DNA of 64,000 nucleotides from positions 2,294,001-2,358,000 of the forward strand of contig OX597815.1 of the NCBI GenBank assembly GCA_951406725.2, read 5' to 3'. The position numbers and the translations under genes are program-made. Positions 1,540 to 22,974 of this stretch are shown one piece after another. The notes below the pieces were generated by a model. It had not been told where the DNA came from. It ran no database searches and saw only the letters and a list, made by a program, of their open reading frames with translations. The DNA is from Octopus vulgaris. Its lineage: Eukaryota. Positions within the stretch are counted from its first letter, which is position 1, and each line of letters starts with the position of its first letter.

Positions 1540-3254
1540 AGCATAAATGGAACACGTGAAGAATATAATTCAATCATACGCGCTTATTTTACAGCAGTTC
1601 TCTACCCAAAGAACGAAAACACAACAACGTATACTTATGAAACATGGAAGAAAAATAACATAAAGACTTGGATTCAGCATCGAACCCTGATAAACTAGCT
1701 AACATATGGAGATATATTCACAAAACAAAACAAAAAGATATCAGAAATAGAAATAGAACACTTAAAAGGGAAAATACATCAGGAAAATGTAGATGGTAAC
1801 CACACAGCAATGTCAAATGATATCATAAGTACCGGGACTGTAAAACACAAACACAGACGTAACAAGTGAAACAAAAACACAGTAAACAACAAAAGACAAG
1901 AAACCCAGACCGTAGGAATGTATAATGATGAATAAAATGCACCAAAGCAGAACAGCACTGACAAAAATATAAATGGGAGGGAATAGGAAAGAAATCTAAA
2001 ACCTGGAAACAGTGAAGGTGGAACTAATGATTATGATACTCTGAAAATGAGCATAAGCAAAGAATTGAGAGCCACAGATCTCAGAATGGACCACCAATTG
2101 TACCTCTGGAAAATTAAAATGGATAATAAAACAACATCAATAATAAATAGCATGAACCTGGCTGTCACAGAACTAATGGCCACAGAAACAAATGTCAATA
2201 TGACTAGGTTAAATGATATATGCAGCAGTCTCTGTGGCCACAACAGAAGATGGATACCCCATCAAACCCATCCACACAGGAGTATCAACACCACAACAAA
2301 CCCTGTGGGTAAATAATAACCAGAAAGAAAGAGAAAATAAGAGAAAAGATCTGTCGATTCTTAACGAAATTAGTAGACAATCAATACTACTAAGCAACAA
2401 AAAGAAAACAAAAATACTGTGCAAATACATCACAGAAAAAGATTTACCTGAGATTTACCTGAGATTTACCTTTGAACAAAAAAAATCCAGTTCAACTCCA
2501 GCCCCCAAAAATTTTTGGCAAAAATAAAATAGATATCAATGCAGCACCAACAGCAGAATAAGTGGAAGAAGTTTTGAAAGAAATATGGTCGGCGGATGAA
2601 CAACCTCAAAAAAGGACTATTAAAATAACGAACTTAGCACCTGAACAACTCTGGACCCCTGTAACAATTGAAGACGTCACCCAGGCACTACAAAGACTAA
2701 GCAACTGGAAGGCACCTGGGCATGATAAGATCCCCATCTTCTGGTTGAAATATCTGACAGGAATGCACAAAATGCTGGCTGAAAGCTTTAACAACATACG
2801 GGCAGAGCCAGAGACAATGTCTGAAAGGCTCACGAAGGGGAAAACCATCTTAATTCTCAAATCCAATGAAACTGCAAAACCAGAAATCTACAGACCTATA
2901 ACCTGTCTCCCTACAATGTACAAATCCTTTACTGTAGTAATATCGCAAAGATTGAACAAGCACCTGGACGAAAACAACCTGTTTCCAGAAGAGCAGAAAG
3001 GGTGCCGTAAGGGCTCATATGGCTGTAAAGATCAACTAATGATCAATAAAGCCATAACCGAAGACAGCCACAGAAAGAAGAAAGGCCTCAGTATGGCCTG
3101 GATCGACTACCGAAGGGCTTTATATAGTATTCCCCAAACGTGGATCCTCGAAACACTAGCCATTAACAAGGTAGCACCAACAATTATAAAATACATAAGA
3201 CATTCTATGAATAAATGGCAGACAGTGCTACAGCTCCAAACAAAAGAGGGACTC
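1540..3254 (+). mobile_element. R4/Dong LINE N-terminal and RT fragment, decayed
   Basis: ORF 2562-3416 contains NWKAPGHDKI, YRPITCLPTMYK, EEQKGCRKGSYGCKDQLMIN and LSMAWIDY. The upstream region has many stops. Confidence 0.88.
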
Positions 3255-3339
3255 GTGAACTGCTCAAGTTCAAATCACTTGATCACTATTATTTTATACA
3301 GAGAATACCTGTCCCTAATCTCTCTCTCCCTCTCACTCT

Positions 3340-3396
<57 letters not shown>

Positions 3397-3660
3397 TATA
3401 CATACAATATACATAGGTCAAGGCCAAACCAAAAGCAGTCTACGTCAAAGGATGGCTCTACATAGATCTCAGATCAAAATTCGGGAATACAGAAAATAGC
3501 AATCAACGAACACATCGACATTTGCGCTACTAACAAACACCCCAACTTCAGAATGTTTCCTCTCTATAAATTCAGGGACGATGCAACCTATAATCAGCGC
3601 ATTAGCAAAGGGTCATATTTTATCACAAAATATAAACCTCTTTTGAAGTATTCATATAAA
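3255..3660 (+). mobile_element. Penelope-like GIY-YIG endonuclease fragment interrupted by (CT)/(TA)n
   Basis: YIGQGQTKSSLRQRMALHRSQIKIREYRK, homologous to the GQTSLSLRRRVMLHKEQIRFPQYRQ segment at about 47.7 kb. Confidence 0.75.
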
Positions 3661-4520: not shown

Positions 4521-4674
4521 TATTGAGTGGGTAAGTTAAATCTGGGCGATTTCCTCAGCAATTCACGCAAGAAACTTGTTAGCGAAGTCTTGCAATAGCT
4601 GTTTAATGGTTAGACTTAATCAACCTTTGCCTTTCTTCACTGTGATTGACATAATTGGCTTTATATATATATAC

Positions 4675-4890
4675 TATATTAAATTAGAGATAAAACCACT
4701 ATTAGGTAAATCAAACAATGAAAAACTTAAGCCAATACATAAAATTAATTAATTAATATTATTTTAAATATATATCAAAAGTATTAAAAGTTTAATAAAA
4801 GTTAATGAGTAAAACACTACGATCGTTTCATGGCTGTCCAATTCATAATGATTCGAGTTAGGGTTACAGTAAATCTTCAGGTAATTGAAA
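4675..4890 (-). mobile_element. Decayed copy of the HHR-bearing element that forms the 9.2-9.6 kb palindrome
   Basis: Shares aaattagaga-aaaaccactatta...cttaagccaatacataaaat and cactacgatcgtttc with 9240-9355. The minus strand reads CTGAAGA...GAAACGATCGTA. Confidence 0.7.
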
Positions 4891-4979
4891 TATTTTATTA
4901 TATATATATGATTGTGTGTACAGCCGAGAGAAAATCCAATACCCCCAGTCCTTACTAATATATAAAGAACTTAATGCAG

Positions 4980-18993: not shown

Positions 18994-19127
18994 TGTATGT
19001 ATGTATGTATAAGATTCAGGGATCGAGGTGTAGGAAGAAAGTTAGCTACGAGCAATCCGTAGAGAATATTAAATAAAAAAACAATTTTAGGAAAAATAGT
19101 GATTTATTGAGACGGCGTCCCCGTTTC

Positions 19128-19680
19128 CTAATATCTTATCTATTTTTTCCCTTCTCCCTAATATCTTATCTATTTTTTCCCTTCTCCCTAATATCTCATC
19201 TATTTTTCCCTTCTCCCTAATATCTTATCTATTTTTTCCCCTCTCCCTAATATCTTATCTATTTTTTCCCTTCTCCCTAATATCTTATCTATTTTTTCCC
19301 TTCTCCCTAATATCTTATCTATTTTTTCCCCTCTCCCTAATATCTTATCTATTTTTCCCCTCTCCCTAATATCTTATCTATTTTTTCCCCTCTCCCTAAT
19401 ATCTTATCTATTTTTTCCCTTCTCCCTAATATCTTATCTATTTTTTCCCTTCTCCCTAATATCTTATCTATTTTTTCCCTTCTCCCTAATATCTTATCTA
19501 ATTTCCCCCTCTCCTTAATATCTTATCTATTTTCCCCTCTCCCTAATATCTTATCTATTTTCCCCTCTCCCTAATATCTTATCTATTTCGTCCCCTCTCC
19601 CTAATATCTTATCTATTTTCCCCTCTCCCTAATATCTTATCTATTTTCCCCTCTCCCTAATATCTTACCTATTTCGTCCC
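19128..19680. repeat. Minisatellite, unit about 29-32 bp (CCTAATATCTTATCTATTTTTTCCCTTCTC), about 18 copies
   Basis: Directly visible tandem units that vary mainly in T-run length. Confidence 0.95.
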
Positions 19681-20933: not shown

Positions 20934-21321
20934 AAAGGGGAAAGTAAGAAGAAAATAAGCGAAAATGCACATTGAAAATCAAAAAAAGTAAAGGCTTTTT
21001 ATGTAAAGTAACGATAGATATATAGAATTAGATGAACTGAGGTAGGAATAAAAGTAATAACATTTATTATTGTGAATTGTTAAAGAGATTCAAAAGCATA
21101 CCGTTTTCGTGAATTTACTAATCAAAGCAATGATTAGTAAATTCACGAAAACGGTATGCTTTTGAATCTCTTTAACAATTCACAATAATGACTTTTATTA
21201 CTTTTATTCCTACCTCAGTTCATCTAATTCTATATTTCTATCGTTACTTTTCATAAAAAGCCTTTACTTTTTTTGATTTTCAATGTGCATTTTCGCTTAT
21301 TTTCCTTCTTATTTTCCCCTT
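20934..21321. repeat. Fold-back palindrome (about 190-bp arms, 6-nt loop at 21125-21130)
   Basis: 20934-21124 is the reverse complement of 21131-21321 with a few mismatches. Flanked by (TA)n. Confidence 0.93.
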
Positions 21322-21777: not shown

Positions 21778-22007
21778 GATAAGATCGATATTTAATTACC
21801 GATCTTATCAAATGGCCAGCATGAGAGTAAAAAACTTCAAAGGTAATAATTATTATTAAAATTATAATTTAAGGTATCTAAGAGATAACACCACGCTGGA
21901 AATAGCAACCAAAATTTTGCTCTAAAACCACATTAAATGTTCATATAGCACCAGGAGAGAAGACAAAAGGACAAAATAATAATTTTATATATATATATGT
22001 ATGTATG

Positions 22008-22055
<48 letters not shown>

Positions 22056-22061
<6 letters not shown>

Positions 22062-22738
22062 CAAAAATAAGGGTGAAAAAAATTGGATATTAATTTAATA
22101 ACATCAATTTAACACCAAGTGGTTTAGCACATAAAGTGGTTTAAAACCAAGTGGTTTAGCGCATAAAAACTGGGATACAGTAAAAATTAATACACAAATA
22201 TAAGAGAGGCTCCACTATGTGGACGCTCTTGCGCTAAAAATAGATCCGCAATGGTCTCAACCACCAAGAATTGTTCCCAAGGTGAATTAGCACAACAATG
22301 AACGTAAACAAGCAGGACAAATGAAAAATAACAAAAATGTAGATTAATTCTAGACAATTGTTTCACTGTTAATGGATTATGCAATGTTACTTACATAATA
22401 GATCCACAGCTCATCAGTAGAATTCGTCATGAATATAATTTATTTAACCGCACGCCAGATTTTAACATAAAGTCAAACACACGTGTGGTTCAGTCTATTA
22501 TATTCGCAGTTATGATTCGAATGCACTCGTTATAGCGCGCCAAAATTTCCGGAAATAAATACTGCATAAATAATTTACTGCAGTATAATTAAAATCAAAA
22601 ATAAGGGTAAAAAAATTGGATATTAATTTAATAACATCAATTTAACACCAAGTGGTTTAGCGCATAAAAACTGGGATACAGTAAAAATGAATACACAAAT
22701 ATAAGAGAGGGTCCACTATGTGGACGCTCTTGCACTAA
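22056..22738 (-). mobile_element. Retrozyme/pLTR-like element with terminal direct repeats (22056-22237 and 22590-22738), flanked by (TA)n
   Basis: Direct repeat aaaatcaaaaataaggg...ccactatgtggacgctcttgc with period about 534 bp. Internal canonical HHR. Confidence 0.78.
22346..22424 (-). ncRNA. Canonical type-I hammerhead ribozyme motif
   Basis: aattcta-CTGATGA-g-ctgt-ggat...atcc..acag-t-GAAAC-AATT-GTC-tagaatt. Perfect 7-bp stem I, full core, GUC triplet. Confidence 0.88.
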
Positions 22739-22756
22739 TATATATATATATATATG

Positions 22757-22790
<34 letters not shown>

Positions 22791-22808
22791 ATATATATAT
22801 AATATATA

Positions 22809-22839
<31 letters not shown>

Positions 22840-22974
22840 CATACACATATATATGTATACATGTATGTTTGCATCCATTCATGTATGCTTAGAGACACAC
22901 GCACACAACAAACCAATAAACATAGTTATGTATAAATGGATGTATGCTTGGGTGTATACTTGTGTATATGCATA

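What the first reader, a model, noticed from the sequence alone, without database searches (positions are those of the whole stretch)
22056..22738. Retrozyme-like insertion of about 1.3 monomers with a textbook hammerhead
A period of about 534 bp with 150-180 bp terminal redundancy, bounded on both sides by (TA)n. It contains the best HHR in the window (7-bp stem I, CUGAUGA, GAAAC, AAUU loop, GUC). A slightly-more-than-unit-length permuted copy is what reverse transcription around a circular RNA, or a tandem PLE pLTR, would leave (inference from the retrozyme model).
Basis: partly seen in the sequence, partly recalled or inferred. Interest (0 to 1): 0.75.

Follow-up and report, generated by a model that had tools for sequence, protein, structure and literature searches.

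The report
Penelope-pasted hammerhead retrozyme, 501-base unit
This is one copy of a protein-less jumping repeat with hundreds of copies and a predicted self-cutting RNA motif; its copies start at two fixed points inside TA microsatellites, as Penelope retrotransposons do, so a Penelope enzyme likely pastes it, possibly from an RNA circle.

Summary
The element is real: 681 bp between (TA)n runs, with a type I hammerhead on the minus strand (predicted cut after 22353). The unit is 501 bp, not 534; a private 32-bp duplication inflates one repeat. The family is dispersed and non-coding (412 exact hits of a 15-mer against 4 control). Hammerhead stems covary across subfamilies. Start points are not freely permuted: 54 of 63 segments have their 3' end at one of two unit sites (about 48 and 145), mostly abutting (AT)n, while 5' ends scatter. 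Half of 56 loci are back-to-back two-armed, and 20 of 22 scorable ones use one site per arm. Coding Neptune-type Penelope elements in this genome show the same layout. So it is a non-LTR retrozyme, likely mobilised by a Penelope enzyme. Copies read through the cut site in register (25 of 29), which fits a circle, or an uncut tandem transcript; neither cleavage nor a circle is shown. This copy has one hammerhead and could not itself release a monomer. No parent element was found. The scan noted similar 360-bp and 485-495-bp families elsewhere in this genome. New member of a known kind.

The parts
22058..22738 (-). Whole insertion: 1.3 units of a non-coding 501-nt hammerhead repeat, one-armed, 3' end at initiation site 2
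   Evidence: longest stop-free frame 67 aa
22238..22738 (-). One 501-nt unit (unit positions 1-501), 32.5% GC
22592..22738 (-). 5' copy of the redundant segment (unit 1-147); the 5'-truncated end abuts (TA)n
22058..22237 (-). 3' copy of the redundant segment (unit 1-147 plus the 32-nt duplication)
   Evidence: 3 of 145 aligned positions differ from the 5' copy
22129..22160 (-). Private 32-nt local duplication that makes the apparent period 533-534
   Evidence: a contig of run X2 skips 32 nt here
22346..22424 (-). Predicted type I hammerhead: 7-bp stem I, core, long helix II, one-pair helix III with palindromic loop; predicted cut between 22353 and 22352
   Evidence: cleavage not tested
22058..22190 (-). 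Tail between inferred reverse-transcription initiation site 1 (unit about 48, window 22190) and site 2 (unit about 141-147, window about 22058); about 97 nt in other copies
22711..22725 (-). 6-bp hairpin with a CCAC..GTGG motif about 20 nt before site 1; candidate recognition element (inferred)
21986..22057 (.). (TA)n target array at the element's 3' end
22738..22859 (.). (TA)n array at the element's 5' end

Best explanation
This is a 5'-truncated, 1.3-unit copy of a dispersed, non-coding 501-nt repeat with a predicted type I hammerhead, likely pasted into a (TA)n array by the enzyme of a Penelope-like element, and probably copied from a circular monomer RNA. Shown: family, unit, two fixed 3' ends at (AT)n, scattered 5' ends, back-to-back arms using one site each, in-register read-through of the cut site, covarying stems. 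Inferred: rare copies with two hammerheads are transcribed, cut at both, and the 501-nt monomer is ligated; a Neptune-type RT/GIY-YIG protein nicks (TA)n on both strands and starts reverse transcription inside the RNA at site 1 from one strand and site 2 from the other; synthesis runs past the ligated junction and stops at random. The window copy shows one arm only (site 2) and has one hammerhead, so it would be a daughter, not a source of monomers. I put Penelope mobilisation at about 0.9 and the circle, given that, at about 0.6.
For: Copies: 3015 candidates, 40 scored; 412 exact matches of a 15-mer against 4 control. Ends: 54 of 63 segments end at unit 40-65 or 138-160 (6.2 expected); 38 of 63 3' ends against 5 of 63 5' ends abut TA-rich DNA. 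Two-armed: 28 of 56 loci; 20 of 22 scorable use one site per arm (P = 6e-5 against 0.5); 13 of 13 opposite-strand neighbours among the first 100 pattern hits are back to back. Coding elements here have the same layout: L091 and L095 arms end 775/821 and 771/823 nt after the frame, into (TA)n; the L091 frame has RVT_1 and a weak GIY-YIG match and a CX4CX2C motif. Read-through: 25 of 29 segments from a short-query sample cross the cut site, 1 ends within 380-392, 7 exceed one unit. Repeats within an insertion are close kin (own mate nearest or tied in 21 of 46 comparisons, median rank 1.8%), and differences between upstream and downstream units do not recur in one direction (24 against 15, P = 0.2). 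Hammerhead: core columns 0.972 conserved against 0.922 (P = 0.024); 11 of 21 pairs have two-sided changes, 93% of cells paired. Literature: two internal initiation sites, both strands nicked and extended, AT-rich targets (PMC11167929); inverted 5' copy and one-ended tail (PMC8557442).
Against: No cleavage or circle is shown. The dominant RNA-like contigs match a 343-nt truncated copy and its unique flanks at similar depth, so they look like read-through from a host locus, not a circle. In the one Penelope system tested in vitro, uncut RNA was the main template and ribozyme cleavage was not needed (PMC11167929). Only 3 of 56 loci span two or more whole hammerhead regions in one direction, and in the longest (L039, 2.8 units) two units are identical over 500 nt while the last piece differs by 7.8% over 115 nt, which fits a later DNA duplication as well as rolling. 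No coding Penelope element sharing the unit's sequence was found among 38 plus 20 loci. The circular fold z-score is alike on both strands (-3.5 and -3.4). The sister family mostly has GUU at the cut site, a weaker triplet from my recall. The tail (about 97 nt) is longer than the published 30-40 nt.
Confidence: 0.55

Rival explanations
1. Same element and same Penelope enzyme, but the template is an uncut linear transcript of a tandem source copy (two or more units); the hammerhead acts at another stage, and no circle is needed.
For: Unprocessed RNA was the dominant substrate in vitro and no reads ended at the cut site (PMC11167929). In-register read-through is expected. Tandem copies exist (L022, L024, L039), and L039's identical units show that arrays may grow at DNA level.
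Against: Daughters can be no longer than their parent, and 5' truncation is heavy, so length must be regenerated (inference). A 1.78-unit query found no array above 2.8 units among 40 scored candidates, and no run of three among the first 100 of 412 pattern hits. Differences between tandem units show no shared polarity, as diverged master units would give; that test is weak if masters are homogenised.
Confidence: 0.33
2. The unit is the pseudo-LTR of a coding Penelope element that I did not find; the copies are truncated and partial-tandem remnants of it.
For: Penelope pseudo-LTRs carry hammerheads (PMC4209133); Xenopus retrozymes match pseudo-LTRs (10.64898/2026.07.22.740005). One sister-family piece is joined directly to a 5'-truncated Penelope frame (L070). 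Searches score only the top 40 or 150 candidates.
Against: Copies longer than one unit run upstream into another unit in register, not into a reading frame. The Penelope protein hits found in flanks (L020, L043, L126/L166) are apart from the element; the one read in full has its own (TA)n end. This rival can still hold as the family's origin.
Confidence: 0.08
3. An LTR-type retrozyme or other LTR relic, or a local duplication beside a chance hammerhead-like motif.
For: Direct terminal repeats of 147-180 nt; Rfam does not score the motif.
Against: 5' ends vary across the unit; the hammerhead is type I and lies outside the repeats; copies are dispersed over many contigs; stems covary.
Confidence: 0.02

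Closest known systems
Metazoan non-LTR retrozymes (PMC7229834, passages and sections 14 and 17; 10.64898/2026.07.22.740005, parts 1-3 of 5)
   Same: Non-coding, GC-poor unit with a type I hammerhead, head-to-tail repeats, no LTR features, co-existing with Penelope elements; monomer-type copies dispersed.
   Different: Unit 501 nt against 170-400 nt in the 2020 paper (within 51-972 of the 2026 preprint); mostly under two units; long helix II; circle and cleavage untested here; insertion ends mapped here to two sites in (TA)n.
EN+ Penelope-like elements, Neptune type (PMC8557442, passages; PMC11167929, main text; PMC4209133, part 1 of 4)
   Same: 5' truncation, inverted 5' copy, one-ended tail from two internal initiation sites, AT-rich or microsatellite target, hammerhead upstream of the initiation sites.
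   Different: No reading frame; tail about 97 nt against 30-40 nt published and about 42-65 nt in the coding families seen here; no sequence match to those families' ends.
Non-autonomous Chlamys elements such as MRC1 (PMC8557442, passage)
   Same: Non-autonomous Penelope-type elements with pseudo-LTRs and head-to-tail insertions.
   Different: Those resemble their autonomous partners at the 3' end, and the N-terminal-endonuclease clades lack canonical hammerheads; here a hammerhead is conserved and no partner match was found.
Plant LTR retrozymes (described in 10.64898/2026.07.22.740005 and PMC7229834)
   Same: Non-autonomous, terminally redundant, hammerhead-bearing.
   Different: Type III hammerheads inside fixed LTRs with PBS, PPT and 4-bp duplications; here type I, outside the redundancy, variable ends.

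Membership tests
Non-LTR retrozyme | Type I hammerhead in the unit | tested here: met
   Descriptor match; core conservation; covariation on 75 sequences. Rfam does not score it.
Non-LTR retrozyme | Non-coding unit of a few hundred bases, low GC | tested here: met
   501 nt, 32.5% GC, longest stop-free frame 67 aa.
Non-LTR retrozyme | Head-to-tail copies with two or more hammerheads somewhere in the family | tested here: met
   3 of 56 loci; both motifs of L022 pass the descriptor. The window copy itself has one, so it is not 'active' by the 2026 preprint's definition.
Non-LTR retrozyme | Dispersed multicopy, no fixed LTR ends | tested here: met
   A primer-binding site was not searched for separately.
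Non-LTR retrozyme | Self-cleavage | not testable with these tools
   Needs in vitro transcription.
Non-LTR retrozyme | Expressed as circular RNA | tested here: inconclusive
   Only contigs of runs guessed to be RNA were available; they cannot show circles.
Penelope-mobilised element (works like) | Fixed internal 3' initiation sites, 5' truncation, inverted 5' arm, one-ended tail, AT-rich target | tested here: met
   same layout in coding elements.
Penelope-mobilised element (works like) | Sequence shared with the terminal repeat of a coding partner | tested here: inconclusive
   No match to the elements' own ends in 38 loci and 20 loci; only a short shared motif; about 11,700 candidates exist and 150 were scored.
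Autonomous Penelope-like element | RT plus GIY-YIG reading frame | tested here: not met
LTR retrozyme | Type III hammerhead within fixed LTRs | tested here: not met
   Type I, outside the redundancy; variable 5' ends.

The most novel reading that the evidence does not exclude
Each two-armed insertion records one Penelope complex priming from both nicked strands of a (TA)n target on a single ligated RNA circle, at two fixed sites about 97 nt apart, and rolling through the re-joined hammerhead junction; the family is thus a genomic record of circle-templated target-primed reverse transcription, and the CCAC..GTGG hairpin shared with Neptune ends is the signal by which it borrows the enzyme.
Probability: 0.3. 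Interest if true: 0.65.

Novelty: new member of a known kind. Interest (0 to 1): 0.4.

Why it matters
How animal retrozymes get back into the genome has rested on co-occurrence and sequence likeness with Penelope elements (PMC7229834; 10.64898/2026.07.22.740005). The end map here gives mechanistic footprints: two initiation sites, one per arm, in (TA)n, matched by young coding Neptune-type elements in the same genome. It names a 501-nt template, two start sites and a candidate enzyme family for an in vitro test of circle against linear template. The kind of element is known, and this scan has noted the same footprint for other families in this genome.

Tried and rejected
Rfam: no hammerhead match. 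Period 534: rejected. Free circular permutation: rejected for 3' ends. A hard stop at the cut site, as a cleaved linear monomer would give: not seen; 1 of 29 5' ends in 380-392, though 6 of 29 lie in 377-399 next to the query's own edge, one of them bounded by an N gap. Parent search: the unit does not match the ends of the young Neptune-type family or its relatives or of a second family; the frame upstream of a sister-family copy in L166 is a separate insertion. Sequencing runs: no RNA holder listed; contigs of runs guessed to be RNA match the truncated copy L134 (0-2 differences in five listed pieces) and its flanks; not used as evidence of expression of a monomer. A GTAAGT donor-like word sits in loop II of both families; no matching splice joint was listed, so it is unsupported. 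L039 as proof of rolling: set aside. One recurrent unit difference (position 67, 4 loci) I judge an alignment artefact beside an indel; with it 24 against 15, without 18 against 15. Target-site duplications cannot be read inside (TA)n. Rows dropped: repeated hits to one place (60 loci to 42), L029 and L037 as likely segmental duplicates of L036, L151 as second hit of L128; for the alignment 48 of 58 family A and 27 of 35 family B segments were used (second arms, duplicates and three badly projected pieces left out). Paper searches listed no paper on this family or on cephalopod retrozymes; the host was not established by my calls (cephalopod is my guess from recall and the label in earlier notes). 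Supplements of the bioRxiv preprint and of the other papers were not seen and may list related families.

Full report
Observation. The stretch 22058-22738 lies between (TA)n arrays. Its ends repeat: 147 nt on one side, 180 nt on the other, the difference being a 32-nt duplication and one base. The spacing is 501 on one side of that duplication and 533 on the other, and other copies follow 501. A type I hammerhead lies on the minus strand, outside the repeats, with C3 at 22417 and C17 at 22353. Rfam does not score it. Helix II is a 46-nt hairpin and helix III is one pair with a palindromic loop; PMC4209133 (part 1 read) says such helices III favour dimeric cleavage. No frame exceeds 67 aa.

Family. 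The window lies in a 2.8-Gb genome of 227 contigs. The element gave 3015 candidates, of which 40 were scored; a 15-mer gave 412 exact matches against 4 for the control. A sister family, 70-76% alike over the longer matches, has periods of 532-538 in 6 of 30 loci and 3851 candidates; the copies read show the same two ends. On 75 hammerhead segments of both families, chosen by position and not by pairing, 93.3% of cells pair, 11 of 21 pairs change on both sides (5 of 6 in the main run of stem I), and slid controls fall to 26-41%. The sequences are related and much of the signal is between subfamilies, so this is support, not a probability. In family A the 11 core columns are better kept than the rest (0.972 against 0.922, P = 0.024), and position 7 of the core varies.

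Ends. Mapped on the unit in 40 loci, 30 of 63 segments end at positions 40-65 and 24 at 138-160; 6.2 are expected by chance. 38 of these 3' ends abut TA-rich DNA; 5 of 63 5' ends do, and 5' ends spread over the unit. These loci were picked by long queries, so I drew a second sample with a 141-nt query just downstream of the cut site (it overlaps the first sample): of 29 segments 25 cross the cut site, 20 hold the whole hammerhead, 7 exceed one unit (the window's own copy included), 1 ends within 380-392. In 56 loci, 28 have two arms, all back to back; 27 have the arms within 60 nt, 22 of these can be scored at both ends, and 20 use site 1 on one arm and site 2 on the other (P = 6e-5). Among the first 100 of the 412 pattern hits, 13 of 13 opposite-strand neighbours are back to back, 4 pairs are tandem, and no run of three occurs.

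The partner. A remnant in the window (48257-48721) led to about 11,700 candidates, 150 scored, many with open frames of 753-782 aa. The L091 frame has RVT_1 (E 3e-7) and a GIY-YIG match below the cut-off (E 0.0016), with CX4CX2C before it, which PMC8557442 (passages) gives for the Neptune and Nematis clades. These elements end in (TA)n at two sites about 50 nt apart, one per arm in L091 and L095; a second family shows sites about 42 nt apart. A CCAC..G(T/C)GG motif lies 21-38 nt before the outer end in 9 of the 41 ends listed, from three families, and about 20 nt before site 1 of the unit; 1 of 79 TA runs in the window has it, and that is this element. This is a lead only: in the coding elements the motif lies between the two sites. 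No coding element shares the unit's sequence in the loci seen. PMC11167929 (main text read) shows that a Penelope protein nicks and extends both strands, prefers AT-rich DNA and starts inside the RNA at two sites that define the tail. The footprint here matches that.

Circle or line. More than one unit in register needs a circle, an uncut tandem, or an exact end-to-end jump. The window's two repeats differ at 3 of 145 positions, against 4.1% for the nearest of 42 others, and share two rare variants, so they came from one source. Across loci the own mate is nearest or tied in 21 of 46 comparisons. Differences between upstream and downstream units do not recur in one direction. Long source arrays were not found; 3 of 56 loci span two hammerheads. 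These points lean to a circle, because truncation should shorten a purely linear lineage (inference). Against: the in vitro Penelope used uncut RNA; L039 may be a DNA duplication; the circular fold is stable (z -3.5, 40 shuffles) but equally so on the other strand; and the RNA-like contigs trace to a truncated copy with covered flanks. PMC7229834 (sections 14, 17, passages) shows circles for coral, mussel and axolotl repeats, which raises the prior; the 2026 preprint found cleavage in 1 of 9 tested dimers, which lowers it.

Verdict. A new 501-nt family of animal non-LTR retrozymes with a Penelope insertion footprint. The window copy is a young, one-armed, one-hammerhead daughter. I stated this reading before looking at earlier notes, which report the same footprint for 360-nt and 485-495-nt families on other DNA of this genome; a look-up by sequence and by place found nothing for this one, and I did not check whether the 490-nt family is a relative. 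Interest 0.4.

Noticed in passing
window 31571-31657 (+): Second type I hammerhead-like motif with a long helix II and a palindromic helix III; stem I extends to about 7 bp by eye.
   Followed up: no
window 48257-48721 (-): Remnant of a Penelope-type reverse transcriptase; used as query, 66-83% identical to the best hits.
   Followed up: partly
L091 2209-4470 (G000:C4:153.22 Mb) and many loci: Young Neptune-type family with near-identical open frames of 753-782 aa, two 3' ends in (TA)n and a hammerhead-like motif that may have the U3-A8 core variant described in PMC4209133 (read by eye).
   Followed up: partly
L070 about 520-800 (G000:C19:13.89 Mb): A sister-family piece is joined at its site-2 end directly to a 5'-truncated Penelope frame with no TA run between: possible template-switch chimera; one case.
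   Followed up: partly
L157-L186: Sister family B, unit about 533 nt, compensatory stem I, mostly GUU at the predicted cut site.
   Followed up: partly
L134 / L190 about 4590-4935 (G000:C30:12.975 Mb): A 343-nt truncated copy whose sequence and flanks dominate the RNA-like contigs of three runs; probably inside a host transcript.
   Followed up: partly
L039 1424-2843 (G000:C9:101.6 Mb): 2.8-unit array of a divergent subfamily with two units identical over 500 nt: recent duplication, young insertion or assembly effect.
   Followed up: partly
window 21055-21235: A long inverted repeat (hairpin of about 90 bp arms, seen by eye), possibly a MITE or a two-armed insertion of another element.
   Followed up: no
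window 2562-3416 (+), 53006-53626 (-): LINE-type fragments; the first has an RVT_1 match, the second none in Pfam.
   Followed up: no
window 19127-19674: 30-bp minisatellite, 18.6 copies, 94% matches.
   Followed up: no
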